A stretch of DNA of 64,000 bases from Candidatus Limnocylindrales bacterium (GCA_044449785.1 JBIOII010000002.1:1141-65140), one strand, 5' to 3'. Positions 4,359-41,533 are shown, numbered from the stretch's first letter. Numbers and translations are program-made. The notes: generated from the letters alone by a model not told the origin.

Positions 4359-5450
4359 TCAGGGAAGGGCGGCGCCCGGGTCGGCCGAAGGCGTCTTGCC
4401 GGCCAGCGCTCCAAAACCGTAAACGGCGTCCGGCGGGCGTTTCACGATAGTTTCGGCGGCACGGGCCCCGGCCGCCTCCGGCGAGACGCTGCCACCCAGC
4501 CAGGTCGCGAAGAACACGGCAGTCCGGCGCCGGAAGCCCGCGTCCTCGTACAGCCAGCGGTGTCCATAATCCGGGAGCACGAGCGTCTCCACAGCAGGAT
4601 CGCCGTCCGAGCGCTGGTCGGCCGCGGCTCGGCCGATCAGCTCGAGATGCTCCACCGGCACCCCGTGGTCCTGGGCCCCGTGGATCAGCAGCAGCGGCCC
4701 GCGATACCTGGCCGCGGCATCAATCGCGCTGGCATCGTTGAGCGAGTGCCGGCGGGGAGTGAGCAGGACTATGGCCGTGATCCATGCCAGCGGTGTCGCG
4801 ATGGGCTCGGGAATGTTCATCTCGGCGATGTCGAAAGTCTTGCGCGTCATACGCACCAGGTCGGCGGGGGCGGAGAGACTGACGACGGCGCGGATCAAGG
4901 GCTCACGCGAGGCGGCCACGAGGGCGCCCGCGGCGCCCATCGAATGGCCCAGCACGCCGACGGTGGAAACGTCCGATCTGGCGGCCAGCCACCGGGCCGC
5001 CGCGGCCGTGTCATCGGCGAATTCGGGCACATTGACCGGCAGCGTCTCCGGCGGGTTGTCGCCGTGGCCGCGCACGTCGAAGACCAGGCAGTGGAAACCC
5101 GCGGCCTGGAGATATCGGACGTGGGCGAACGTTCGACCGCGGTTCGATTCCCAGCCGTGGACGACGGCGATCGCCGGCCGACGCTCGATCGATGAAGCGG
5201 ACCCGGTCTCCGGACCGGCCGCGGCGACGAACCAGCCGCGGAGCTCGTGGTCCCCGGCGGGCACGGAGACGTCCTCGAATGCCAGACCGAACTCGGCGGG
5301 CGACGTGTCCACCGAGCTGCGCCGCGGTAGACCGACTCGCTCGCGGTAGCGAAGGGCGAACCTGTATGCCGCAGCCAGCGCGGTAACGCCGCCGACGAGA
5401 ACGAACAGTCGAAGCCATCGAGATCGGTGGGAGCGTTTGGGTCGAGACAT
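4359..5450 (-). CDS. alpha/beta hydrolase, membrane-anchored
   Basis: Nucleophile elbow GHSMGA, with a downstream Asp/His region (HGAQDHGVP, YGHRW). Start moved to MSRPKRSHRSRWLRLFVLVGG (TM anchor, ATG at 5450). The 80 codons upstream in the ORF track are Arg/Gly-rich and look non-coding. Confidence 0.8.
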   Translation of the reverse strand: MSRPKRSHRSRWLRLFVLVGGVTALAAAYRFALRYRERVGLPRRSSVDTSPAEFGLAFEDVSVPAGDHELRGWFVAAAGPETGSASSIERRPAIAVVHGWESNRGRTFAHVRYLQAAGFHCLVFDVRGHGDNPPETLPVNVPEFADDTAAAARWLAARSDVSTVGVLGHSMGAAGALVAASREPLIRAVVSLSAPADLVRMTRKTFDIAEMNIPEPIATPLAWITAIVLLTPRRHSLNDASAIDAAARYRGPLLLIHGAQDHGVPVEHLELIGRAAADQRSDGDPAVETLVLPDYGHRWLYEDAGFRRRTAVFFATWLGGSVSPEAAGARAAETIVKRPPDAVYGFGALAGKTPSADPGAALP

Positions 5451-5594: not shown

Positions 5595-6341
5595 ATGCCG
5601 CGAAACCCTTTCGTCGTACTCGGGCTGGCCCCGGACGCGACCATGGAATCGATCAAGGTGGCGTGGCGGCGCCTCGCAAGACAGCACCATCCGGACGTCA
5701 CGAGCGGCGACCCGGCCGTGGAGCGGCGCGCCAATCGCACCATGGCCGAGATCAACGCCGCGTATCAGGAGCTACGCGATCCGGAGAAGCGGCGTGTCTA
5801 TCGGGATGCTGCCGCGAGAGCCGCGCATGAAGGCAACGGCGGCGTGCCCGGCAACGGCAGGGCTGGCGGCGCAACCGACCGCGCTCCCGGCCCCTCGGGA
5901 TGGGTTTCGAGGCCGGGCTCGGTCCGGCCGGTGACCGCCCGGATCGACATGAGCGCCCTGCTTCGGCCGCGCAACGCCACGCTGCGGCCGCTCGACCACA
6001 GTCCACTTCCCGGGTTGCCGCCGCGGCCGCGCTCGATCGAGGGGCACGAGCCGCCGCGCGCATCGACCCCTACCGGCCCGATGCACCGGCGTCGCGGCCC
6101 AAACATGGAGGCCGATCTACCGGCCCTGCCCGAGGCTCTTAACACGCGGCTGAGGTTCGGGAAGTTCGCCGGGCTGACGCTCGGCGAGGTTGCGGCGATC
6201 GAGCCGTCCTATGTCGATTGGATCGTCCGGACGATCGACAGGGACCCCGAGATCAGCCTTGCGGCGCGGGTCGTGCTGCGATTCCTGACCTCAGGCCCGG
6301 TTCGGCGTCCGCGCCTGGACACAATCTTCCCGAGGGGCTGA
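5595..6341 (+). CDS. J-domain (DnaJ-like) protein with C-terminal FGKFAG...YVDW motif
   Basis: J domain NPFVVLGLAPDATMESIKVAWRRLARQHHPDV with the HPD tripeptide. Pro-rich linker. C-terminal LRFGKFAGLTLGEVAAIEPSYVDWIVRT. A paralog lies at 31588-32097. Confidence 0.8.
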   Translation: MPRNPFVVLGLAPDATMESIKVAWRRLARQHHPDVTSGDPAVERRANRTMAEINAAYQELRDPEKRRVYRDAAARAAHEGNGGVPGNGRAGGATDRAPGPSGWVSRPGSVRPVTARIDMSALLRPRNATLRPLDHSPLPGLPPRPRSIEGHEPPRASTPTGPMHRRRGPNMEADLPALPEALNTRLRFGKFAGLTLGEVAAIEPSYVDWIVRTIDRDPEISLAARVVLRFLTSGPVRRPRLDTIFPRG

Positions 6342-25318: not shown

Positions 25319-25688
25319 TCCGGCAGCTGCGGGTCCGGGGCGGGCGCCCTGAACCAGACCTCGAGCCGACGCCGGCTCAATGTACTACGCACCGGTGGAG
25401 TGGCTGGACCCGCGGCCATTCGATCACCTGGCGCAACCCGGGTCGCGCAGGGCGGGGCGGATTCCATCCCGCGGATGTGCCCTGAAAGCCGGCGACGCGC
25501 CACGAACGTCGTTCAGCTTGTATCTCAGCGCCGGGGCCGGTCGGAATGGTAATGTCCCTCCGGGCGCGGAGCCGATCTGGGACGGCCGAGCACCCTGGCA
25601 AGCGGTTCGTCTCGCCTTCCGGCGCCTGGGCACGGCCGGACTCTGTTCGAGACGCGGTCGACAGCAGTGGCCAACGAAGAGGAGAGTC

Positions 25689-28139
25689 GTGCGCTACGGT
25701 CACTTCGACGATGAGCGACGCGAGTACGTCATCACCCGTCCGGACACGCCGTTGCCGTGGATCAACTACCTCGGCAGCGAAGCGTATTTCGGAATCATCT
25801 CGAACACCGCCGGCGGCTACTCCTTCTACCGCGACGCACGCCTGCGCCGCCTGACCCGGTACCGATACAACAATGCGCCGCTGGACCTGGGCGGGCGCTA
25901 CATCTACCTGCGCGACGACGAGTCTGGCGAGTACTGGAGCCCGAGCTGGCAGCCCACCCAGTGTGAGGTCGAGGACTACAGCTGCCGCCACGGGCTGGGC
26001 TACTCGATCATTGGCTCGCGTTTCAAAGGCATTCGAGGCGAGACCCTCTACTTCGTTCCACTCGGCGAGAACCTCGAAGTGTGGCGGATCCGCGTCACGA
26101 ACGAACGGGCCACTCCGGCGAAGATCTCACTCTTCGACTCGATCGAGTTCTGCCTTTGGGAAGCCAACGAAGACGCCACGAACTTCCAGCGGAACTACTC
26201 CACGGGCCAGGTCGAGGTGGAGGACGGCGTCATCTATCACAAGACCGAGTACCGCGAGCGGCGCGACCATTTCGCGTTCTTCGCCTGCTCGGCTCCGCTG
26301 ACCGGGTTCGACACTCAGCGCGACGCGTTCCTCGGGCCCTACCGCGGCTGGGATCGGCCGCTTGCCGTAGAGAACGGCGCCGCCACCGGCTCGATCGCCC
26401 ACGGCTGGCAGCCGATGGGCTCTCACCACGTCAAGCTCGATCTGGCGCCGGGCGAGACGAGGGAAGTCATCGTGCTGCTCGGGTACCAGGAGAACCCCAA
26501 GGACGACAAATTCGATCCGCCCGGCTCGCAGAAGATCAACAAGAAGCGGGTCAAACCGATCATCGCCCGCTACCTCCAGCCGGCTGTCGTCGAGAAGGCA
26601 TTCGCCGACCTCCATGCCTACTGGACGAACGCGCTCGGCATCTTGCAGGTGACGACCGCCAGCGAGCACGTGAACCGGATGGTGAACATCTGGAACGCAT
26701 ACCAGTGCATGGTGACGTTCAACATCTCGCGCTCGGCCTCGCTGTTCGAGTCTGGTATAGGCCGCGGCATGGGCTTCCGAGATTCGAACCAGGACTTGCT
26801 GGGCTTCGTCCACATGGTCCCGGCTCGGGCCCGCGAGCGAATCCTCGATATCGCCGCGACCCAGCTGCCGAGCGGCGGCGCATACCACCAGTACCAGCCG
26901 CTGACCAAGCGCGGCAACGACGACGTGGGTGGCGGCTTCAACGACGACCCGGCCTGGCTCGTTCTCGCAGTGGCGGCGTATCTCAAGGAGACGGGAGACT
27001 CCGGCGTACTGGATGAGCCGGTGCCCTACAACAACGCCCACGGCACCGAGAAGCCGCTGTACGAACACCTGCAGCGATCGCTCGGTTACACGCTGGAACG
27101 CGTTGGACCGCACGGCCTGCCGCTCATCGGCCGGGCCGACTGGAACGATTGCCTGAACCTCAACTGCTTTTCAGATACGCCGGGCGAGTCGTTCCAAACG
27201 ACGGAGAACAAGGAGGGCGGCGTCGCCGAGTCCGTCTTCATCGGTGGGCTATTCGTGCTCGCCGCCAGGGAGATGGTGGACATCGCGACCCGGCGCGGGG
27301 ACTCGGTCGAGGCGAAGCGATCGGCGGACGCGGCAGCGGCGATGACGTCGATCGTCGAGACAGCCGGTTGGGACGGTGACTGGTTCCGCCGTGCCTACGA
27401 CTTCTTCGGGAATCCTGTCGGGTCGAAGGAATGCACCGAGGGCCAGATCTTCGTCGAGCCTCAAGGCATGTGCATCGTGGCCGGCATCGGTCTCGAGAAT
27501 GGGCTGGCCGGCAAGGCCCTGACCGCGGTTCGTGAGCGGCTGGCCACGCCGCACGGCATCGTCCTGAACCAGCCCGCGTTCACCTCCTATCACCTCGAGC
27601 TCGGCGAGATCTCGACTTATCCGGAGGGCTACAAGGAGAACGCCGGCGTCTTCTGCCACACCAACCCCTGGGTGATGATCGCGGAGGCGATGGCCGGCAA
27701 CGGCGACGGCGCGCTGGACTACTACCTGCGCATCAACCCCTCGGCGCGTGAGGAGATCTCCGAGGTGCATCGCTGCGAGCCGTACGTCTACGCCCAGATG
27801 ATCGCCGGCAAGGACGCGCCGACCCACGGCGAAGCAAAGAACTCGTGGCTCACGGGCACGGCCGCCTGGAACTTCGTCGCGATCAGCCAGTGGATCCTGG
27901 GCATCAGGGCCGAGCACGACGGCCTGCGCATCGATCCGAGCCTGCCCGCGGACTGGGGCGACTACACCGTGGGCCGCCGCTTCCGCGGCGCCCGATACGA
28001 GATAACGGTCCACAAGGCCAGGGGCGCTTTCGGTCGCGTGGCGAGGATGACGCTGGACGGGGCGGCGATCGACGGCAATCTCCTCCCCCTTCCAACCAGA
28101 CCCGGCCAGTCATTCGTGGTCGAGGCGTTCGTCCAGTAG
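25689..28139 (+). CDS. GH94 family glycoside phosphorylase (cellobiose/chitobiose phosphorylase-like)
   Basis: N-terminus RYGHFDDERREYVITRPDTPLPWINYLG, GGYSFYRDARLRRLTRYRYNN, and catalytic region HGLPLIGRADWNDCLN. Start set at GTG 25689 after GAAGAGGAGAG, giving about 816 aa. Confidence 0.88.
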   Translation: MRYGHFDDERREYVITRPDTPLPWINYLGSEAYFGIISNTAGGYSFYRDARLRRLTRYRYNNAPLDLGGRYIYLRDDESGEYWSPSWQPTQCEVEDYSCRHGLGYSIIGSRFKGIRGETLYFVPLGENLEVWRIRVTNERATPAKISLFDSIEFCLWEANEDATNFQRNYSTGQVEVEDGVIYHKTEYRERRDHFAFFACSAPLTGFDTQRDAFLGPYRGWDRPLAVENGAATGSIAHGWQPMGSHHVKLDLAPGETREVIVLLGYQENPKDDKFDPPGSQKINKKRVKPIIARYLQPAVVEKAFADLHAYWTNALGILQVTTASEHVNRMVNIWNAYQCMVTFNISRSASLFESGIGRGMGFRDSNQDLLGFVHMVPARARERILDIAATQLPSGGAYHQYQPLTKRGNDDVGGGFNDDPAWLVLAVAAYLKETGDSGVLDEPVPYNNAHGTEKPLYEHLQRSLGYTLERVGPHGLPLIGRADWNDCLNLNCFSDTPGESFQTTENKEGGVAESVFIGGLFVLAAREMVDIATRRGDSVEAKRSADAAAAMTSIVETAGWDGDWFRRAYDFFGNPVGSKECTEGQIFVEPQGMCIVAGIGLENGLAGKALTAVRERLATPHGIVLNQPAFTSYHLELGEISTYPEGYKENAGVFCHTNPWVMIAEAMAGNGDGALDYYLRINPSAREEISEVHRCEPYVYAQMIAGKDAPTHGEAKNSWLTGTAAWNFVAISQWILGIRAEHDGLRIDPSLPADWGDYTVGRRFRGARYEITVHKARGAFGRVARMTLDGAAIDGNLLPLPTRPGQSFVVEAFVQ

Positions 28140-28205: not shown

Positions 28206-30605
28206 ATGTCTGAGGTCGAGGCTCGCCCTGGCGCCAACGCATACGGCTACTTCGACGTGGCGGCCCGTGAGTACGTCATCACTCGCCCCGACACGCCGAC
28301 GCCATGGCTCAACTACATCGGCGAGGGCCGGTACGGCGGCATCGTGTCGAACACCGGCGGCGGCTACTCGTTCGACCGCGACCCGCGCAACCGGCGGGTC
28401 ACCCGCTACCGCTACAATGCCATCCCAGTCGATCAGCCGGGCCGCTACGTTTACCTGCGGGACCAGGATTCCGGCGAATACTGGAGCCCAACCGCACGCC
28501 CGACAAAGCGCGATCTGGACGCCTACGAATGCCGCCACGGCGCGGCTTACACGCGGATCTCCAGTTCGTGGCGTGGGATCGCGGCCGAGATCACCTATTT
28601 CGTCCCGCCGAGCTCGGCGGATGAGCCCGCCCCTTGCGAGCTGTGGGTCCTCAAGGTCCGCAACGTCGGCTCGTCCCCGCGCCGGCTGCGCTCTTTCAGC
28701 TACGCCGAGTTCAGCTTTGCCGATGCCTTCAACGACCTGACCAACCTGGACTGGGCCCAGCACATCGTCTTCTCGAGCTGCGAGAACGGCGTCATCCGGG
28801 TCGGGACCAAGTTCAACCCGCTGACCTACTTCTTCGGCGCCAGCGAGGCGCCCGCCGGTTACACCTGCGACCGCGAGGACTTCATCGGGCGTGGCCGCGA
28901 CCTGGCCGATCCGATCGTCGTCGAGACCGGACAGCCGTCGAATGGCGGCTCGCCGCGAGGCAACAGCGTGGGTTCGCTCGTGCACGACATCGAACTGGCC
29001 GCTGACCAGGAACGCCTGATCGTCTTCGTCATGGGTGCCACGGAGCAGCCGGTGGAAATAGGCCGTGTGGTGGCTCGCTATGCCGATCCGGCCGAGGTGA
29101 GTGCCGCATTCGCGGCCCTCCGCGACGACTGGGCGGCCTACTTGTCGCGGTTCACCGTGGAAACCCCGGACGCCGACACGAACGCAATGATCAACTTGTG
29201 GAACCAGGTTCAGTGCCGGACCACGCTGTACTGGTCACGCTTCGTCTCCGGCTACGAGAGCGGCCTGGGCCGTGGCATGGGCACGCGCGACAGCGGCCAG
29301 GACACGCTGGGCACGATGCACACCGTGCCGGACCACGCCCGCCGGATGCTCACCACGATCTGGAGGATGCAGTTCGCCGACGGCCACACCTGGCACCAGT
29401 TCTTCCCGTTGACGCTGGAGGGCGGACCCGGGCTGGCTTCGGAGTATCCGAACTGGCCGCAATGGTTCAGCGACGACCACCTGTGGTTGATCCTTTCGGT
29501 CTGCGCTTACCTCCGAGAAACCGGCGACTTCGATTATCTCGAGCAGAAGGTCGCCTACGTCGACCATGCCGATGAGACCATCTGGGAGCACATGCTCCGG
29601 GCGGTCGATTTCACGCTCGGGCATCTCGGACCGCACGGATTGCCCCGCGCCGGCTTCTCTGACTGGAACGACACGCTCAACATCGACCACGGCTCCGGCA
29701 AGGCGGAGAGCGTCTGGACGGGGATGCAGTTCTGCCGGGTCATGCTGGATTTGCAGGAGCTTGCCCAGCATCTGGGCCGGCCGGCCGACGCGGCGCGCTA
29801 CGCGGCGCTTCACGCCTCCATGGCGAAGGCGATCAACCAGTGTGCATGGGATGGCGCTTGGTACAAGCGCGCCTTCGACGACGACGGCCTGCCGATCGGC
29901 GAGTCCGGGGCGGCGCACCAGGCGATCGACCTGATTCCGCAGAGCTGGAGCGTCCTTGGTGGGGTTGCGTCTCGGGAGCGGGCGGTCATGGCGATGCGCT
30001 CGGCCGACGAGAGGCTCAACACGAAGTTCGGTATCGCATTGCTCTGGCCGCCCTACGATGGCGCCGACGATCGGGTCCGCGGCACTGCGACGTACGTGCC
30101 CGGGGCCAAGGAGAACGGCGGCATCTTCTGCCACGCCAACACGTGGTCGATCGTGGCCGCGGCGATGCTCGGCGACGGTGACGCGGCGTACAAGTACTAC
30201 CGCCAGATCCTGCCACTGGCCCGTACCGACTCGGACCTCTACAAGGTGGAGCCGTACACGTACCCGCAGAACATCTGCGGCCCGACTCACCCGTCGTTCG
30301 GGATGGCGCGAAACGCCTGGTTGACGGGAACGGCATCGTGGACTTTCGTGGCCGCCTCGCAGTGGATCCTCGGCATCCGGCCAACGTACGATGGGCTCCG
30401 CGTGGCGCCGGCACTACCAAGCGCGTGGCCGGGCTTCAAGGCCCATCGTGAGTTCCGCGGCACGGCCTACGAGATCTCGGTCCGGCGTGGCGGCGCCGGC
30501 AATGCCGTGTCGCTGATCGTCGACGGAACGGAAGTGGCCGGCGATGTCGTACCGCTTCCGGCGCCCGAAACGCCGATGGTGAAAGTGGAGGTCGTTCTGC
30601 GATGA
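28206..30605 (+). CDS. GH94 family glycoside phosphorylase, second paralog
   Basis: YGYFDVAAREYVITRPDTPTPWLNYIG, GGYSFDRDPRNRRVTRYRYNA, HGLPRAGFSDWNDTLN. 799 aa. Confidence 0.88.
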   Translation: MSEVEARPGANAYGYFDVAAREYVITRPDTPTPWLNYIGEGRYGGIVSNTGGGYSFDRDPRNRRVTRYRYNAIPVDQPGRYVYLRDQDSGEYWSPTARPTKRDLDAYECRHGAAYTRISSSWRGIAAEITYFVPPSSADEPAPCELWVLKVRNVGSSPRRLRSFSYAEFSFADAFNDLTNLDWAQHIVFSSCENGVIRVGTKFNPLTYFFGASEAPAGYTCDREDFIGRGRDLADPIVVETGQPSNGGSPRGNSVGSLVHDIELAADQERLIVFVMGATEQPVEIGRVVARYADPAEVSAAFAALRDDWAAYLSRFTVETPDADTNAMINLWNQVQCRTTLYWSRFVSGYESGLGRGMGTRDSGQDTLGTMHTVPDHARRMLTTIWRMQFADGHTWHQFFPLTLEGGPGLASEYPNWPQWFSDDHLWLILSVCAYLRETGDFDYLEQKVAYVDHADETIWEHMLRAVDFTLGHLGPHGLPRAGFSDWNDTLNIDHGSGKAESVWTGMQFCRVMLDLQELAQHLGRPADAARYAALHASMAKAINQCAWDGAWYKRAFDDDGLPIGESGAAHQAIDLIPQSWSVLGGVASRERAVMAMRSADERLNTKFGIALLWPPYDGADDRVRGTATYVPGAKENGGIFCHANTWSIVAAAMLGDGDAAYKYYRQILPLARTDSDLYKVEPYTYPQNICGPTHPSFGMARNAWLTGTASWTFVAASQWILGIRPTYDGLRVAPALPSAWPGFKAHREFRGTAYEISVRRGGAGNAVSLIVDGTEVAGDVVPLPAPETPMVKVEVVLR

Positions 30606-31587: not shown

Positions 31588-32097
31588 ATGCCGGATCTGT
31601 ACGAAGTACTTCAGGTTCATCCGAGGGCCGAATCGGAAGTTATTCGCGCGGCCTACCGCACCCTGGCGCGGAAATACCACCCCGACCACGGCGGCGATGC
31701 GCGGCGGATGATCGAGATCAACGATGCCTGGGACGTCCTCGGCGATCCCCGCCGGCGAGCCGCGTACGACGCCGAGCGCGCCAGTGCGCCGGCCGCCGTC
31801 CCGAACCCCGAGCCGCCCCAGCAGCCGGTGTCGACTTCTACGGTGTCGCATGCGCCGGCCGATTCCCATGCGGGCCCGCCGCCGGGCCGTCCATCGGGCA
31901 CGGTGCTCGACTTCGGCCGCTACGCCGGCTGGTCGCTGGGCGAGATAGCCAGGCAGGACCTCGATTACCTCGAATGGCTCCAGAGGTCGACTCTCGGACG
32001 GCGCCTCCGCGCCGAAATCGACGTCCTCCTCGCCCCGAGGCGCCGGCCGGGATCGTCGGCTACGTCCACCGCCAGTCCGTGGCGCGGGCACCGCTAG
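31588..32097 (+). CDS. J-domain protein, paralog of 5595-6341
   Basis: DLYEVLQVHPRAESEVIRAAYRTLARKYHPDHGGD. C-terminal LDFGRYAGWSLGEIARQDLDYLEWLQRS. Confidence 0.8.
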   Translation: MPDLYEVLQVHPRAESEVIRAAYRTLARKYHPDHGGDARRMIEINDAWDVLGDPRRRAAYDAERASAPAAVPNPEPPQQPVSTSTVSHAPADSHAGPPPGRPSGTVLDFGRYAGWSLGEIARQDLDYLEWLQRSTLGRRLRAEIDVLLAPRRRPGSSATSTASPWRGHR

Positions 32098-35501: not shown

Positions 35502-35640
35502 CCTGAGCCGACGGCGGGGGCCCGACCCGGGCCCGACGCTCCAGTTGTCACCAAGAGTCGTCGGCGGTCGGGGAGGAGGTACTCCGGTCTTTCGAAATGA
35601 GGCCGGCCCGGCCGCTTTGACCATGCCTTCGTGCTAACCT

Positions 35641-35765
35641 ACGGCCAACCTTTGCGGCCGGTCCTGTGAGGCCGGCGTACCGGTCCCGAGAGGCCGGAAG
35701 GGAGGTCCATGGTTGCCTGTAATGAGAACCACCGCGCCCGTAAGGCCGGTGGCCTTTTTGTGTGA
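35641..35765 (+). promoter_or_regulatory. PyrR-type transcription attenuator (leader of carA)
   Basis: Tandem stem-loops GCCGG-UCCUGUGAGG-CCGGC (35657-35676) and CCGG-UCCCGAGAGG-CCGG (35680-35697). The second matches the PyrR binding core UCC(A/C)GAGAGG. An intrinsic terminator follows at 35729-35759. Confidence 0.72.
35729..35759 (+). terminator. intrinsic terminator of the carA attenuator
   Basis: CCACCGCGCC-cgtaa-GGCCGGTGG (9 bp with one bulge), followed by CCTTTTTG. Confidence 0.7.
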
Positions 35766-37000
35766 AGCAGCCGCCGTTCCCGCGCTCCAGCGCGGTCGTC
35801 GATCCGAGAGTCGGTGACTACGGACCGGCGTTGCTGGCCCTCGAAGACGGCCGGCTCTTCCCGGGAATCGCGTTTGGGGCGCAGCGATCGGGCGAAGGCG
35901 ACCTGGTCGTGAACACCAGTCAGACCGGCTACCAGGAGATCGCTACTGATCCCTCGTATGCCGGCCAGCTCGTCGTCATGACCTACCCGCTGATCGGCAA
36001 CTACGGCCGCGTCCGATACGACGACCAGTCCGAGCGGCCGTGGCTTCGCGGTTTGATCGTGGCCAACGCCACCGCCGCGGTTCTGGACGATGCCCAGCAG
36101 CTGGCCACGATGCTGCGCGAGGCTGGTATTCCGGCCATCGCCGGCGTCGACACCCGAGCCCTGGCCCGACATCTCCGAGCCAACGGCAGCCTGCGCGCCA
36201 TTGTTACGGCGCCCGGCGAAATCGACCCGGAGGAGGCCCGAGCGCTCGCCCGAGCGGTGCCTCGCTGGGAGGACCAGGACTTCGTGGCCGCTGTCTCGGC
36301 CGAGGCCGCGCGCGACGAGGGTGATCCCTCCGAGGGCGGGCCGCTGTTGGCAATCCTGGATTTCGGCCTGAAGACGAACATCGTGCGCAGCCTTCGCCGC
36401 CGCGGGGCCCGGGTCCGAGTGCTGCCGCACACGGCTACGGCGACGGATCTGCTGGCAGCCGAAGTCGATGGCGTTGTCTTCTCGCCCGGGCCGGGTGACC
36501 CGGCCCGCCTCGACGGCGCGGTTGCCCTCGCCGCCGCCGTGATTGCCGACGGCCGGCCGCTGCTCGGCATCTGCCTTGGCCACCAGATCGTGGGTCGGGC
36601 CGCCGGGGCGAGTACTCGACGCCTCCCATTTGGCCACCACGCCGCGAACCACCCGGTCCAGGACCTGGAGACGGGCCTGGTCCAGGTAACCGCGCAGAAC
36701 CACGAGGTCACTGTGATCGGCGACACGCTGCCGGCGGCGAGTGGCTTCGTGGTCAGCCAGGTCGACCTGAACGACTGCTCGGTCGAGGGGCTGCGCCACC
36801 GCGACAAGCCGATCGAGACGGTCCAATACCACCCCGAAGGCGGCCCGGGTCCGCTCGACGCGCTGGCCGTGTTCGATCGCTTCGTCTCGGCCGCTCGCGC
36901 CCGCCATGGGGGACGGGAGCCCGAGCCGACGATCGGGCGGGTCGAGCCGCTCCACCTGGACACGGCCGAGCTCCAGCGCCGCCTGGCGGGCATGGGCTGA
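35762..37000 (+). CDS. carA: carbamoyl-phosphate synthase small (glutaminase) subunit
   Basis: ALLALEDGRLFPGIAFGA, class-I amidotransferase nucleophile LGICLGHQ, VQYHPEGGPGP. The start (GTG 35762, directly after the terminator T-run) is uncertain. Confidence 0.92.
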   Translation: MKQPPFPRSSAVVDPRVGDYGPALLALEDGRLFPGIAFGAQRSGEGDLVVNTSQTGYQEIATDPSYAGQLVVMTYPLIGNYGRVRYDDQSERPWLRGLIVANATAAVLDDAQQLATMLREAGIPAIAGVDTRALARHLRANGSLRAIVTAPGEIDPEEARALARAVPRWEDQDFVAAVSAEAARDEGDPSEGGPLLAILDFGLKTNIVRSLRRRGARVRVLPHTATATDLLAAEVDGVVFSPGPGDPARLDGAVALAAAVIADGRPLLGICLGHQIVGRAAGASTRRLPFGHHAANHPVQDLETGLVQVTAQNHEVTVIGDTLPAASGFVVSQVDLNDCSVEGLRHRDKPIETVQYHPEGGPGPLDALAVFDRFVSAARARHGGREPEPTIGRVEPLHLDTAELQRRLAGMG

Positions 37001-37089
37001 GGCAGTCAGGCCTGGCCCAATTCGGGGCCATATGCTGGTGGCGTCGCTTGTCCAAAGTCCCTACGCCAGTCCGTAGTCAGGTGCACGAA

Positions 37090-37455
37090 ATGCCAACCAC
37101 GTTGATCACCAGCACGATCGACCAGTACATCGCCGGCTTCCCACCCGAGACCCGGAAGGTGTTGGCGGAGATGCGAGCCCTAATCAAGTCGGTCGCGCCC
37201 GGCGCCACAGAGACGATCAGCTATGCGATACCGACCTTTGACCTGAACGGACGCCACCTTGTGCATTTCGCTGGTTACGCGAAGCACATCGGTTTCTATC
37301 CGATCCCGAGCGGCATGGAGGCGTTCGAGGAGGAACTCAAGACCTACAAGCGTGGCCGGGGCTCGGTGCAGTTTCCGCTCGGCAAACCGCTGCCCACGGA
37401 CCTGATCCGCCGGATCGTCGAATTCAGGGTCGAAGAGAACACGCGCGCCCGATAA
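37090..37455 (+). CDS. DUF1801 (YdhG-like) domain protein inserted between carA and carB
   Basis: IDQYIAGFPPETRKVLAEMRALIKSVAPGATETISYAIPTF...HFAGYAKHIGFYP...GRGSVQFPLGKPLP. Family recognised from memory. ATG 37090 preferred over the track start 37048. Confidence 0.72.
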   Translation: MPTTLITSTIDQYIAGFPPETRKVLAEMRALIKSVAPGATETISYAIPTFDLNGRHLVHFAGYAKHIGFYPIPSGMEAFEEELKTYKRGRGSVQFPLGKPLPTDLIRRIVEFRVEENTRAR

Positions 37456-37934
37456 GCTGAAGGACCGACCGGCGGCATCGTCCCAGCCTCCGCCTCCACC
37501 GCGTCGCGCTCCGCGGGCGAGAGCCGGCGCCATGACTCGATCGCGACGGCACCAGTGGACCGCCGGTACGTGACGATCTGCTCGCGGGTTAGCTCGAGCC
37601 GAGCCCTCGTCACGTCAGATGTCCCTCCGCCCCTGACGAGTCCTTGAGCTTCCTGCCTGGACCCGTTGTTGAGCGTCAAACGAGAGCAGCAGCACGGTCA
37701 AGTCATGGACTGTTCTGCGGTGCGACCGGGTCGACGGTTTCCGTGTCGAGCCAGTGCGTGGTTGTCGGTGATGGTCGGCTTGAGCCCTGATCGCCGAGAC
37801 AATTCAGCGGCAGCTGGGGCTAAGGTGGTCCGGCGGGGAGAGTTCACGCAGATCCAACATGAGCGGATCGAGCCAGGGTTGCTTTCGGCGCTGCCCTGCT
37901 TTCGGCGCTGCCAACCTCCTTCCTGCTATCCTTC

Positions 37935-38057
37935 GCGCAACCCTTGGGGCCGGTCCTGTGAGGCCGGCGTACCGGTCCAGAGAGGCCGGGGAGGAAGTCG
38001 ATGCGCACCTGCGATGAGAACCACCGCGCCTGTTTCGGCCGGTGGCCTTTTTGTGTG
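37935..38057 (+). promoter_or_regulatory. PyrR-type transcription attenuator, second copy (leader of carB)
   Basis: Same tandem stem-loops. The second loop is the exact consensus UCCAGAGAGG (37976-37985). Terminator at 38021-38052. About 85% identical to 35646-35772 by manual alignment. Confidence 0.75.
38021..38052 (+). terminator. intrinsic terminator of the carB attenuator
   Basis: CCACCGCGCC-tgtttc-GGCCGGTGG followed by CCTTTTTG. Confidence 0.7.
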
Positions 38058-38068
38058 AGGCAGCCTCT

Positions 38069-41533
<3,465 letters not shown>

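What the first reader, a model, noticed from the sequence alone, without database searches (positions are those of the whole stretch)
35641..38069. carA and carB split by an inserted gene, each with its own near-identical PyrR attenuator
Two roughly 125-nt leaders (35646-35772 and 37938-38064) are about 85% identical by my manual alignment. Each contains two tandem stem-loops with loops UCCUGUGAGG and UCC(C/A)GAGAGG; the latter matches the PyrR RNA-binding core. Each ends in a bulged 9-bp terminator with a T-run that abuts the start codon region.

carA and carB are normally adjacent or overlapping. Here about 1 kb lies between them, holding a DUF1801-like gene plus about 480 nt with no gene, and carB has acquired a duplicate leader. 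This suggests an insertion and duplication event that preserved pyrimidine control of both subunits. No pyrR gene is in the window.

Most of the mismatches between the two copies cluster in the segment between the binding loops and the terminator, which is the presumed antiterminator.
Basis: partly seen in the sequence, partly recalled or inferred. Interest (0 to 1): 0.6.

Follow-up and report, generated by a model that had tools for sequence, protein, structure and literature searches.

The report
Twin PyrR leaders with upstream ORFs

Summary
Two about 150-nt leaders (35626-35772 and 37918-38064, 84-86% identical) precede carA and carB.

Each leader carries these parts:
- a conserved -10-like box;
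- two tandem hairpins whose hexaloops fit CNGNGA inside the PyrR core GGUCCNGNGAGGCC;
- a Shine-Dalgarno site;
- an 18- or 23-codon upstream ORF (uORF) that contains an intrinsic terminator;
- a uORF stop that overlaps the gene's start codon (GUGA at carA, UUGA at carB).

pyrR is in the genome and in all 41 related genomes searched. No RNA antiterminator is predicted.

Best reading: PyrR clamps the Shine-Dalgarno site and blocks uORF translation. The terminator then forms, and carA and carB are not reinitiated. This is Thermus-like, ribosome-mediated attenuation combined with translational coupling.

The design is shared across Limnocylindria. There, one leader normally serves an adjacent, coupled carA-carB pair.

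The split and the leader duplication are shared by most species of this genus, so they did not happen in this genome. Two close relatives keep the unsplit form.

Rfam RF00515 misses these leaders, but it also scores Thermus leaders below its threshold.

Verdict: a new variant of a known kind, of moderate interest. All of this is inferred from sequence; nothing has been tested experimentally.

The parts
35632..35640 (+). -10-like box TGCTAACCT (extended -10 TGn + TAACCT) of the carA leader
   Evidence: Conserved as GTGCTAACCT, TGATAACCT or TGCTATCCT upstream of every carA and carB leader in the genus, and as TGCTACCCT in other genera. The consensus promoter scan found nothing, so this rests on conservation only.
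35647..35653 (+). Anti-Shine-Dalgarno stretch AACCUUU, the 5' strand of the closing helix
   Evidence: Pairs with GGGAGGU(C) in the minimum-energy folds. The same CCUUU or UCCU pairing with the Shine-Dalgarno site appears in nearly all of 90 related leaders. It is the counterpart of the CCUUU/AAAGG lower stem of the Rfam PyrR model and of Thermus leaders.
35657..35676 (+). Hairpin H1 of the carA leader (GCCGGUC-CUGUGA-GGCCGGC)
   Evidence: RNAalifold consensus. Three pairs show changes on both sides, against none for the alternative long hairpin. The loop fits CNGNGA.
35680..35697 (+). Hairpin H2 of the carA leader (CCGGUC-CCGAGA-GGCCGG), the PyrR core
   Evidence: Matches the Rfam PyrR core GUCCaGaGAGGC (seen on the carB copy). 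Only loop positions 2 and 4 vary across relatives.
35698..35705 (+). Shine-Dalgarno site (AAGGGAGG) of the upstream ORF
   Evidence: GGAGG or GAAGGAGG is conserved directly after H2 in all leaders.
35709..35765 (+). Upstream ORF of 18 codons (MVACNENHRARKAGGLFV*). Its stop, TGA 35763-65, overlaps the carA start GTG 35762-64.
   Evidence: It has 18 codons in most genus copies. The frame is kept through the terminator even where the start codon moves. The stop overlaps an in-frame gene start in 33 of 38 copies.
35729..35759 (+). Intrinsic terminator inside the upstream ORF (stem-loop 35729-35752, U-run 35755-35759)
   Evidence: -15.9 kcal/mol. The stem is invariant across 49 leaders.
35762..37000 (+). 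carA (carbamoyl-phosphate synthase small subunit). GTG start, no Shine-Dalgarno site of its own.
   Evidence: Pfam CPSase_sm_chain and GATase. The N-terminus MKQPPFPR is conserved from this start in relatives.
37090..37455 (+). DUF1801 gene (121 aa), part of the variable insert
   Evidence: Pfam PF08818. Also lies after carA in G001, G003, G015 and G016.
37464..37640 (-). Remnant of an AlkZ-like DNA glycosylase gene: the two ends are joined and about 850 nt are missing
   Evidence: blastn and tblastx match two segments that lie about 850-920 nt apart in relatives. The intact relative gene is Pfam AlkZ-like.
37924..37932 (+). -10-like box TGCTATCCT of the carB leader
37949..37968 (+). Hairpin H1 of the carB leader (loop CUGUGA)
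37972..37989 (+). Hairpin H2 of the carB leader (loop CAGAGA)
   Evidence: Aligned to the Rfam PyrR core with high posterior probability.
38001..38072 (+). Upstream ORF of 23 codons (MRTCDENHRACFGRWPFCVRQPL*). Its stop, TGA 38070-72, overlaps the TTG at 38069-71.
   Evidence: A 1-nt insertion in the terminator loop shifts the frame relative to the 18-codon form, yet the stop still lands on an in-frame start codon of carB.
38021..38052 (+). Intrinsic terminator inside the carB upstream ORF (stem-loop 38021-38045, U-run 38048-38052)
   Evidence: -16.6 kcal/mol.
38069..41533 (+). carB (carbamoyl-phosphate synthase large subunit). Probable TTG start coupled to the upstream ORF.
   Evidence: Pfam CPSase_L domains; frame analysis. 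The start codon is inferred. GTG 38042 and TTG 38051 are also in frame but lie inside the terminator.

Best explanation
Each leader is an independent, PyrR-controlled transcription unit that works through a short upstream ORF (uORF).

**Layout.** Transcription starts a few bases after the TGnTAaCCT box. The 5' RNA folds into two tandem hairpins, H1 and H2. Each presents the PyrR recognition hexaloop CNGNGA in the context GGUC-loop-GGCC. A short helix closes the hairpins by pairing an upstream CCUUU stretch with the Shine-Dalgarno site of the uORF.

**Pyrimidines plentiful.** PyrR, loaded with UMP or UTP, binds the hairpins and locks this closed form. No ribosome loads on the uORF. The terminator that lies inside the uORF then folds and transcription stops after about 125 nt. 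Any transcript that reads through stays untranslated, because carA and carB have no Shine-Dalgarno site of their own.

**Pyrimidines scarce.** PyrR is off and a ribosome initiates on the uORF. After a few codons it covers the 5' arm of the terminator (codons 7-10, AAC CAC CGC GCC), so RNA polymerase reads through. The ribosome stops at the UGA that overlaps the gene's start codon (GUGA for carA, UUGA for carB) and reinitiates there.

**History.** The ancestral layout was leader - uORF - carA - carB, with every junction translationally coupled. Within this genus variable DNA separated carA from carB. carB acquired a copy of the promoter, leader and uORF, and in several species also the first carA codons. 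That copy restores both pyrimidine control and a way to start translation.

**Shown from sequence:** the anatomy, its conservation, the presence of pyrR and the phylogenetic distribution.

**Inferred:** PyrR binding, uORF translation, ribosome-mediated read-through and reinitiation.
For: **PyrR link.**
- The core GGUCCNGNGAGGCC matches the Rfam PyrR consensus core.
- Among about 90 related leaders only loop positions 2 and 4 vary.
- pyrR scores 247.8 bits against a 138-bit cutoff in this genome and is found in 41 of 41 relatives.
- Its closest solved structure is Thermus PyrR, 1UFR, at 230 bits.
- The strict tandem pattern occurs once per genome in 74 of 121 family genomes and 2-3 times in this genus. 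The reversed control pattern gave no hits.
- The only other site in the genome is a single CNGNGA hairpin before pyrR-pyrB.

**The uORF.**
- The Shine-Dalgarno site and ATG are conserved.
- It has 18 codons in most genus copies.
- The frame through the terminator is kept even when the start moves to TTG or GTG.
- Its stop overlaps an in-frame, open start codon of carA or carB in 33 of 38 genus copies.
- Copies with extra DNA after the terminator either lengthen the uORF to 26-57 codons or extend the N-terminus of the gene. In both cases the stop-start overlap is kept.
- In other genera 59 of 70 scorable leaders overlap, and 10 more have TGA directly followed by GTG, with uORF lengths of 8-49 codons.

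**No RNA antiterminator.**
- The terminator forms in the minimum-energy and centroid folds.
- Truncated leaders show no conserved pairing of its 5' arm.
- The RNAalifold consensus has only H1, H2 and the terminator.

**Shine-Dalgarno sequestration.**
- CCUUU or UCCU pairs with the Shine-Dalgarno site in nearly all folds.
- The two window copies differ in a compensating way around the AUG: GCCA:UGGU in the carA copy against CGCA:UGCG in the carB copy.

**Precedent seen directly.** Thermus and Meiothermus pyrR leaders have the same order of parts: CCUUU, hairpin, AAAGG Shine-Dalgarno site, then a 30-codon ORF holding a terminator and ending inside pyrR.

**History.**
- carA and carB are split in G001, G003, G006, G008, G009, G012, G015, G016, G017 and G021.
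- They are unsplit, with a GTGA-coupled junction, in L057, and close together behind a single leader in G011.
- carB N-termini such as VRQPPLPT and VKQQPL resemble the carA N-terminus VKQPPFPR.
Against: - There is no experimental or transcript evidence.
- Rfam RF00515 does not reach its threshold.
- Covariation is thin because the stems are almost invariant: three double-sided changes, all in H1, and none in H2 or the terminator.
- The uORF residues NHRA..AGG.FV are dictated by the terminator stem. Peptide conservation therefore says nothing about translation.
- Predicted folds sequester the Shine-Dalgarno site even without protein. The 'on' state must therefore rely on kinetics or on ribosome competition.
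- The Shine-Dalgarno-to-AUG spacing in the carA copy is short: 3 nt after GGGAGG.
- The two hairpins can refold into one long hairpin of slightly lower predicted energy.
- The carB start codon (TTG 38069) is inferred.
- What I say about the published Thermus and mycobacterial mechanisms and the CNGNGA consensus comes from memory. Those papers were not held in the library.
Confidence: 0.7

Rival explanations
1. A classical Bacillus-type PyrR attenuator. PyrR stabilises an anti-antiterminator. Without PyrR, an RNA antiterminator formed by the middle segment competes with the terminator.
For: PyrR-type hairpins lie upstream of an intrinsic terminator. GGCCGG motifs in the hairpin arms could in principle pair with the CCGCGCC of the terminator's 5' arm (read from the sequence).
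Against: - No antiterminator appears in the minimum-energy or centroid folds of the full or truncated leaders.
- None appears in the RNAalifold consensus of 49 leaders.
- The middle segment carries a conserved Shine-Dalgarno site, a start codon and a frame-preserving ORF instead.
- The hairpins and the terminator are each far more stable than any long-range 6-7 bp alternative.
Confidence: 0.08
2. Purely translational control. PyrR blocks the Shine-Dalgarno site, and the uORF merely delivers ribosomes to carA and carB. The stem plus U-run is not used as a regulated terminator.
For: - Several other genera, and the sister family, have the hairpins, the Shine-Dalgarno site, a uORF and the stop-start overlap, but no U-run or no hairpin after it.
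- The pyrR leader of the genus has a 7-codon uORF with no terminator.
Against: In this genus the 9-bp stem followed by 5-6 U is invariant and is placed exactly inside the uORF. That placement is hard to explain without terminator function.
Confidence: 0.12
3. UTP-sensitive, ribosome-coupled attenuation of the E. coli pyrBI/pyrE kind. RNA polymerase pausing at low UTP lets the leader ribosome catch up. This would act instead of PyrR or in addition to it.
For: A leader ORF spanning an intrinsic terminator just before the gene is the pyrBI layout (from my own knowledge). It is compatible with the anatomy seen.
Against: - No U-rich pause tract lies between the uORF start and the terminator.
- The conserved PyrR-type hairpins and the universal presence of pyrR argue that PyrR is the sensor.
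Confidence: 0.05
4. The hairpins are bound by a factor other than PyrR, or they are a structured repeat with no regulatory ligand.
For: Rfam PyrR is below threshold. The 14-nt core alone occurs at background frequency in these GC-rich genomes.
Against: - The full tandem pattern is unique to carA and carB leaders, with no control hits.
- The loop varies only at the two free positions of the PyrR consensus.
- A related hairpin precedes pyrR itself.
- Thermus pyrR leaders have a nearly identical hairpin, CCGGUC-CNGCGA-GGCCGG.
Confidence: 0.05

Closest known systems
Thermus pyr operon leader (PyrR box, leader peptide and terminator; Van de Casteele et al. 1997, J Bacteriol 179:3470, cited from memory). 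The anatomy was checked here on Thermus and Meiothermus genomes.
   Same: - The hairpin stem and loop type are the same (CCGGUC-CNGNGA-GGCCGG).
- An upstream CCUUU pairs with the Shine-Dalgarno site of a leader ORF.
- An intrinsic terminator lies inside that ORF.
- The ORF ends at or inside the start of the regulated gene.
- The PyrR proteins are each other's closest solved relatives.
   Different: - Two hairpins here (three in some relatives) against one in Thermus.
- The targets are carA and carB, not pyrR-pyrB.
- The uORF is shorter (18 against 30 codons) and ends in a 4-nt NTGA overlap.
- The regulated gene has no Shine-Dalgarno site of its own, whereas Thermus pyrR has GGAGG.
- The leader is duplicated within one locus.
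Bacillus subtilis pyr attenuators (Rfam RF00515; Turner, Lu and Switzer 1994-96; summarised in PMC4347634 and PMC6524683)
   Same: The PyrR protein family. The recognition core UCCNGNGAGG. An intrinsic terminator upstream of pyrimidine genes. The presumed uridine-nucleotide signal.
   Different: - There is no RNA antiterminator or anti-antiterminator pair.
- Read-through is proposed to need a translating ribosome.
- The Rfam model scores only 20.8 bits.
Mycobacterium smegmatis PyrR translational repression (Fields and Switzer 2007, J Bacteriol 189:6236; reference seen in PMC12369341, paper itself not held)
   Same: A PyrR hairpin lies next to, or pairs with, a ribosome-binding site in a high-GC organism. 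Control acts at translation initiation.
   Different: The blocked site here belongs to a uORF, not to the first pyr gene. A terminator adds transcriptional control.
E. coli pyrBI and pyrE leader-peptide attenuators (Turnbough and Switzer 2008 review, cited from memory)
   Same: The terminator lies inside a leader ORF just upstream of the gene. A ribosome following the polymerase prevents termination.
   Different: The sensor there is UTP-dependent polymerase pausing, with no PyrR. No U-rich pause tract is seen here.
Split carA/carB loci in other bacteria, for example the large variable carA-carB spacer of Neisseria (Lawson et al. 1995, cited from memory)
   Same: carA and carB are separated by variable, partly mobile DNA.
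   Different: Here the separated carB carries a duplicate of the whole regulatory leader and depends on it for translation initiation.

Membership tests
Rfam RF00515 (PyrR binding site) | Covariance-model score at or above the gathering threshold (54 bits) | tested here: not met
   No hit at gathering threshold. The carB copy scores 20.8 bits, E = 8.8, and the carA copy gives no hit. As a control, Thermus and Meiothermus pyrR leaders also fall short at 36.7-39.6 bits.
Rfam RF00515 (PyrR binding site) | Stem-loop presenting the conserved core (A/G)UCCNGNGAGG(C/U), i.e. hexaloop CNGNGA | tested here: met
   The core aligns to the model's GUCCaGaGAGGC with top posterior probability. All four hairpins in the window fit it. 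Across about 90 leaders only loop positions 2 and 4 vary.
Rfam RF00515 (PyrR binding site) | Lower stem (CCUUU/AAAGG) with an internal loop below the recognition hairpin | tested here: inconclusive
   A CCUUU:AAGGG closing helix is predicted. It encloses two hairpins rather than one, and covariation for it is only suggestive.
Rfam RF00515 (PyrR binding site) | Mutually exclusive antiterminator and terminator downstream of the binding loop | tested here: not met
   The terminator is present, but no antiterminator appears in single-sequence or consensus folds.
PyrR regulon (functional) | A pyrR gene in the genome, and sites located upstream of pyrimidine-pathway genes | tested here: met
   pyrR scores 247.8 bits in this genome and is found in 41 of 41 relatives. 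The sites lie before carA, carB and pyrR-pyrB.
PyrR regulon (functional) | Uridine-nucleotide-dependent binding of PyrR to the RNA | not testable with these tools
   Needs purified protein and RNA.
Thermus-type leader-ORF-coupled PyrR attenuation | PyrR hairpin directly upstream of, and paired into, the Shine-Dalgarno site of a short leader ORF | tested here: met
   The same arrangement was seen in Thermus loci.
Thermus-type leader-ORF-coupled PyrR attenuation | Intrinsic terminator inside the leader ORF | tested here: met
   Codons 7-16 of the 18-codon ORF form the stem, and the U-run comes just before the stop.
Thermus-type leader-ORF-coupled PyrR attenuation | Leader ORF ends at or inside the start of the regulated gene | tested here: met
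   GUGA at 35762-65 and UUGA at 38069-72. 33 of 38 genus copies and 69 of 70 leaders in other genera overlap or abut.
Thermus-type leader-ORF-coupled PyrR attenuation | The leader ORF is actually translated, and its translation suppresses termination | not testable with these tools
Needs ribosome profiling or reporter assays.
E. coli pyrBI-type UTP-sensitive attenuator | U-rich polymerase pause sites between the leader start and the attenuator | tested here: not met
   No U-rich tract lies in 35709-35728 or 38001-38020.

The most novel reading that the evidence does not exclude
Throughout the class Limnocylindria, pyrimidine genes would be expressed only by reinitiation after a PyrR-gated upstream ORF. 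carA, carB and pyrR lack ribosome-binding sites of their own, and their start codons sit on the uORF stop (NUGA).

If so, this obligatory coupling explains why a whole promoter-leader-uORF cassette, in several species with the first carA codons, had to be copied in front of carB once mobile DNA separated the two genes. It would also explain why later indels are compensated so that the overlap is kept. The window's carB copy is an example: a 1-nt insertion in the terminator loop goes with a shifted start codon.

This would be a natural case of a regulatory and translational 'starter cassette' being duplicated to rescue a gene cut off from its operon.
Probability: 0.5. Interest if true: 0.55.

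Novelty: new variant of a known kind. Interest (0 to 1): 0.42.

Why it matters
PyrR control is textbook for Firmicutes. The leader-peptide variant proposed for Thermus has stayed a little-tested curiosity.

- **Comparative support.** More than 100 independent leaders from an uncultured, environmentally abundant Chloroflexota class share the same logic. In nearly all of them the uORF frame and the stop-start overlap are kept, even though uORF length ranges from 2 to 57 codons. That is the strongest comparative support so far for ribosome-mediated PyrR attenuation.
- **Testability.** The design is compact (about 125 nt), so it can be tested in cell-free systems.
- **Operon evolution.** It shows how an operon that depends on translational coupling can survive being split: the whole starter leader is copied.
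- **Annotation.** Rfam RF00515 misses PyrR sites outside Firmicutes. The start codons of carA and carB in these genomes should be placed at the uORF stop.

Tried and rejected
- **Rfam at gathering threshold.** Searches on the window and the genome gave nothing but a tRNA.
- **Consensus sigma-70 promoter scan.** No hits. The promoter call rests on conservation only.
- **carA or carB debris in the 37456-37930 gap.** I looked for this as evidence of a whole-operon duplication followed by reciprocal loss and found none. The gap holds an AlkZ-like gene remnant instead.
- **Single long hairpin.** I tested whether the two hairpins really form one. It is slightly more stable in silico. It has no compensatory changes, against three for the tandem form. 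Relatives with three tandem hairpins, or with an insert between H1 and H2, also argue for separate hairpins.
- **Leader tree.** I tried to date the duplication with a tree of 49 leaders. carA and carB labels are intermixed (10 changes against 12.1 in shuffles). Either gene conversion has occurred or 116 nt carries too little signal, so no timing is claimed.
- **Further regulon members.** A generic hairpin-plus-CNGNGA scan gave 617 hits and was useless in this GC-rich genome. The 14-nt core occurs at background frequency, and the recurrent extra hit lies inside rplP coding sequence.
- **Arginine sensing.** I considered that the uORF senses arginine through its conserved Arg codon in the terminator arm. 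I rejected this as untestable. The codon is fully explained by the stem, and it is replaced by His codons in other genera.
- **Third leader copy on contig C153.** It is cut by the contig end. It follows a DnaJ-like gene that is only 67-82% identical to the window's copy and is split by an IS21-like element. It is probably a co-binned relative rather than a third locus.
- **Literature.** The key PyrR papers (Thermus 1997, M. smegmatis 2007, Bonner 2001, the 2008 review) are not held.


Full report
**1. The observation**

- Window 35600-35800 aligns with 37892-38092 at 86% column identity.
- The repeat finder gives 35626-35741 against 37918-38033 at 83%.
- blastn within the genome gives 83.8% over 148 nt, E = 2.5e-39.

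Pfam confirms the genes:
- carA, 35762-37000;
- a DUF1801 gene, best start 37090, ending at 37455;
- carB, ending at 41533.

Each leader has two hairpins with hexaloops and a bulged 9-bp terminator followed by five U.
- carA leader: hairpins 35657-35676 and 35680-35697; terminator 35729-35759.
- carB leader: hairpins 37949-37968 and 37972-37989; terminator 38021-38052.
- Terminator energies are -15.9 and -16.6 kcal/mol.

It starts at a shared -10-like box: TGCTAACCT at 35632-40 and TGCTATCCT at 37924-32.

**2. The organism and the regulator**

CarA relatives come from MAGs labelled Chloroflexota, Candidatus Limnocylindria or Limnocylindrales. The window lies in a 2.3-Mb MAG that is 64.5% complete.

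pyrR is not in the window. It lies on another contig (C4:55919-56446, minus strand). It scores 247.8 bits against the NCBIfam PyrR model, whose cutoff is 138 bits. It is followed by pyrB. All 41 related genomes searched have one pyrR. The closest solved structure is Thermus thermophilus PyrR, 1UFR, at 230 bits.

**3. Are these PyrR sites?**

Rfam RF00515 does not reach its threshold of 54 bits. Nothing was found at gathering threshold. Only the carB copy appears in a permissive search, at 20.8 bits, E = 8.8.

In that alignment the best-conserved part of the model (GUCCaGaGAGGC) is matched exactly. The loss of score comes from the lower stem and the antiterminator part.

As a control I fetched Thermus and Meiothermus pyrR loci. 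Their leaders score only 36.7-39.6 bits. The model therefore under-detects PyrR sites outside Firmicutes, and the miss is not informative.

Positive evidence:
- Across about 90 distinct related leaders the sequence CCGGUCC-N-G-N-GAGGCCGG is almost invariant. It changes only at loop positions 2 and 4. From memory, those are the free positions of the published PyrR loop consensus CNGNGA.
- The strict tandem pattern is found in 74 of 121 genomes of the family. It occurs once per genome outside this genus and 2-3 times inside it. The reversed control pattern gave no hits.
- The only other site of this kind in the genome is a single hairpin (CCGGCA-CNGNGA-GGCCGG) in front of pyrR.
- A 14-nt core alone is not specific in these GC-rich genomes. 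I therefore claim no further regulon members.

**4. What lies between the hairpins and the terminator**

I find no support for that.
- The terminator forms in the minimum-energy and centroid folds of both leaders.
- In leaders truncated before the 3' arm, the 5' arm has no conserved partner.
- RNAalifold on 49 leaders predicts only H1, H2 and the terminator, with nothing paired in the middle.

Instead, the segment holds a conserved Shine-Dalgarno site (GGAGG, directly after H2) and an ATG.
- The resulting ORF is 18 codons in most copies of the genus. Its consensus is M-V-A-C-(K/N)-(L/E)-N-H-R-A-x-x-A-G-G-(F/L)-F-V.
- Codons 7-16 are the terminator stem-loop.
- The two loop codons vary freely, but their length is kept.
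- Where the ATG is lost, a TTG or GTG appears in the same frame (L024, L045, L047).

**5. The stop-start overlap**

In the window the carA upstream ORF runs 35709-35765. Its TGA (35763-65) overlaps the GTG (35762-64) from which the conserved CarA N-terminus MKQPPFPR is read.

The carB copy has a 1-nt insertion in the terminator loop. Its ORF therefore runs 23 codons, 38001-38072. Its TGA (38070-72) overlaps a TTG (38069-71) that is in frame with CarB.

In the genus, 33 of 38 scorable copies show this overlap with an in-frame, open start codon. The five exceptions are in assemblies with evident frameshifts, or my motif search failed there.

Some copies carry extra DNA after the terminator. They resolve it in one of two ways, and both keep the overlap:
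- the upstream ORF lengthens to 26, 33, 46, 49 or 57 codons and still ends on the start codon;
- the gene gains an N-terminal extension from an ATG placed on the uORF stop, for example MTPPHPLKQPPFPR.

In other genera of the class, upstream ORFs of 8-49 codons end in NTGA on the carA start in 59 of 70 scorable leaders. In 10 more the TGA is followed at once by GTG.

Neither carA nor carB has a Shine-Dalgarno site of its own. The sequence in front of each start codon is the terminator.

**6. The 5' domain**

An upstream pyrimidine stretch pairs with the Shine-Dalgarno site and closes the two hairpins into one domain. The stretch is AACCUUU in this genus and UCCUU or UCCU elsewhere. The pairing appears in nearly all of 90 folds.

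This corresponds to the CCUUU/AAAGG lower stem of the Rfam model and of the Thermus leaders.

A further 4-bp helix may cover the AUG.
- The window's two copies differ there in a compensating way: GCCA:UGGU before carA and CGCA:UGCG before carB.
- The association across 32 copies is only suggestive: 165 of 5000 shuffles do as well, and phylogeny is ignored.

Covariation overall is thin because the stems barely vary.
- H1 has three pairs with double-sided changes.
- The alternative single long hairpin has none.
- H2 and the terminator are invariant.

Some relatives have three tandem hairpins or an insertion between H1 and H2. That favours separate hairpins.

**7. Mechanism proposed**

*Pyrimidines plentiful.* PyrR, bound to uridine nucleotides, holds H1 and H2 and with them the closing helix. 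The Shine-Dalgarno site of the upstream ORF is then unavailable. Without a ribosome the terminator folds and transcription ends at the U-run. Any read-through RNA is not translated.

*Pyrimidines scarce.* A ribosome starts the upstream ORF and soon covers the terminator's 5' arm. The polymerase reads on. The ribosome terminates on the NUGA and reinitiates on carA or carB.

The anatomy and its conservation are shown. PyrR binding, translation of the ORF and ribosome-dependent read-through are inferred.

A weak point is that the predicted folds hide the Shine-Dalgarno site even without protein. The 'on' state must therefore depend on kinetics or on ribosome competition.

**8. Comparison with what is known**

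*Thermus pyr operon.* This is the closest system. From memory, Van de Casteele et al. 1997 proposed that PyrR blocks translation of a leader peptide whose ribosome would otherwise prevent termination. I could not read the paper, but I checked the anatomy on Thermus and Meiothermus genomes.
- The order of parts is CCUUU-AAA-CCGGUC-CNGCGA-GGCCGG-AAAGGGGG-ATG.
- A 30-codon ORF then holds a terminator and ends 11 nt inside pyrR.

The present leaders differ from Thermus in five ways:
- they have two hairpins rather than one;
- they control carA and carB;
- they end in a 4-nt overlap;
- the regulated gene has no Shine-Dalgarno site of its own;
- the leader is duplicated within one locus.

*Bacillus attenuators* (mechanism summarised in PMC4347634 and PMC6524683). 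The present leaders lack the antiterminator.

*M. smegmatis translational repression* (reference seen in PMC12369341). The present leaders add the upstream ORF and the terminator.

*E. coli pyrBI attenuator.* It shares the ribosome-versus-terminator logic but uses UTP-dependent pausing, for which I see no U-rich tract here.

**9. History of the split**

In other genera carA and carB are adjacent, with gaps mostly -28 to +90 nt, behind a single leader.

In the window's genus the leader was found in 23 of 24 other genomes, at 2-5 matches each. In every well-assembled split case, carA and carB each have a leader. They lie 2.3-20 kb apart.

The DNA between them is variable:
- PNPOx-like, SnoaL-like and LysR genes;
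- a DUF1801 gene;
- an AlkZ-like glycosylase gene;
- a Mutator-family transposase in G021.

The window has the shortest insert. Its 'empty' 480 nt contains the two ends of the AlkZ-like gene, with about 850 nt deleted.

Two close relatives are unsplit. L057 has a GTGA-coupled carA-carB junction. G011, which the tool places in the same genus, has carB within about 100 nt of carA and only one leader.

The split therefore arose within or near the base of this genus, not in this genome.

Several CarB N-termini (VRQPPLPT, VKQQPL) resemble the CarA N-terminus VKQPPFPR. The copied segment therefore reached into carA.

Ancestral carB was translated by coupling to carA. A separated carB would have lacked any way to start translation. 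That gives a functional reason for copying the whole cassette.

A tree of the leaders does not separate carA from carB copies. Gene conversion may have occurred, or 116 nt carries too little signal.

**10. Verdict**

- The PyrR reading is supported in kind.
- The antiterminator reading is replaced by an upstream-ORF mechanism.
- The insertion and duplication are real but old.

This is a new variant of a known kind of regulation. It has good comparative support and no experimental support. Interest is moderate.

Noticed in passing
G000 contig C4:56446-56530 (locus L002), outside the window: The pyrR gene of the genus has its own small version of the same design. It runs: -10 box TGTATCCT, CCUUUAA, a single hairpin CCGGCA-CNGNGA-GGCCGG, Shine-Dalgarno site GGAAGGAGG, then a 7-codon upstream ORF (TTG/GTG/ATG CAG GGC AGC GAG AAT CGA TGA). 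The ORF's stop overlaps the pyrR ATG (ATGA). There is no terminator. It is conserved in 23 genomes.
   Followed up: partly
G000 contig C4:56560-56880 (minus strand), outside the window: Upstream of the pyrR leader lie about three tandem copies of a roughly 120-nt unit (GATCGAGTTCCGTGGCGTCCGGCCGGACGG...). The array runs to the contig end. Its nature is unknown.
   Followed up: no
window 37464-37640: The 'gene-free' gap holds the two ends of an AlkZ-like DNA glycosylase gene (minus strand) that has lost about 850 nt internally. Relatives have the intact gene between carA and carB. A related copy lies on contig C84.
   Followed up: yes
G000 contig C153 (3698 nt), outside the window: A third, truncated leader copy sits at the contig end. 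It lies downstream of a DnaJ/ExoX-C-like gene that is only 67-82% identical to window 31588-32097 and is interrupted by an IS21-like element (istA/istB). A 92%-identical partial copy of that element is on C139. This contig is probably from a co-binned relative.
   Followed up: partly
L036 (G010:C27) 4793-4932: A decayed extra leader copy lies in front of a secreted GH3 glycosidase gene. Its loops are mutated to CUGGGG and UCAAGG, while its upstream ORF and terminator are intact. It looks like a duplicated leader losing its PyrR sites.
   Followed up: partly
L116 4245-4313 and L124 4332-4399 (other genera): Two genomes with carA and carB still close (gaps of 232 and 343 nt) carry a second pair of PyrR-type hairpins plus a Shine-Dalgarno site between carA and carB. 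Internal leaders before carB may have arisen more than once.
   Followed up: no
L015/L050 (G005) and L033 (G001) carA leaders: Some relatives have three tandem PyrR-type hairpins instead of two. L040 (G017) has a roughly 40-nt hairpin inserted between H1 and H2.
   Followed up: no
L048 (G036, sister family with genomes of about 1.1 Mb) 5700-5830: carA and carB are adjacent here. The leader follows directly after a tRNA gene. It has two hairpins, a Shine-Dalgarno site and only a 2-codon upstream ORF (AUG AAG UGA) overlapping the carA GTG. There is no terminator. The Shine-Dalgarno site could also serve the GTG directly.
   Followed up: partly
window 38021-38072: The carB leader has a 1-nt insertion in the terminator loop. 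Downstream, the carB start lies in a different frame from that of relatives such as G021. Together the two changes keep the uORF stop on a start codon (UUGA). This may be compensatory evolution or coincidence.
   Followed up: partly
window 25695-25870 and 28242-28417: A 176-nt direct repeat at 75% identity reflects two paralogous large ORFs (25380-28139 and 28206-30605). It is unrelated to the finding.
   Followed up: no
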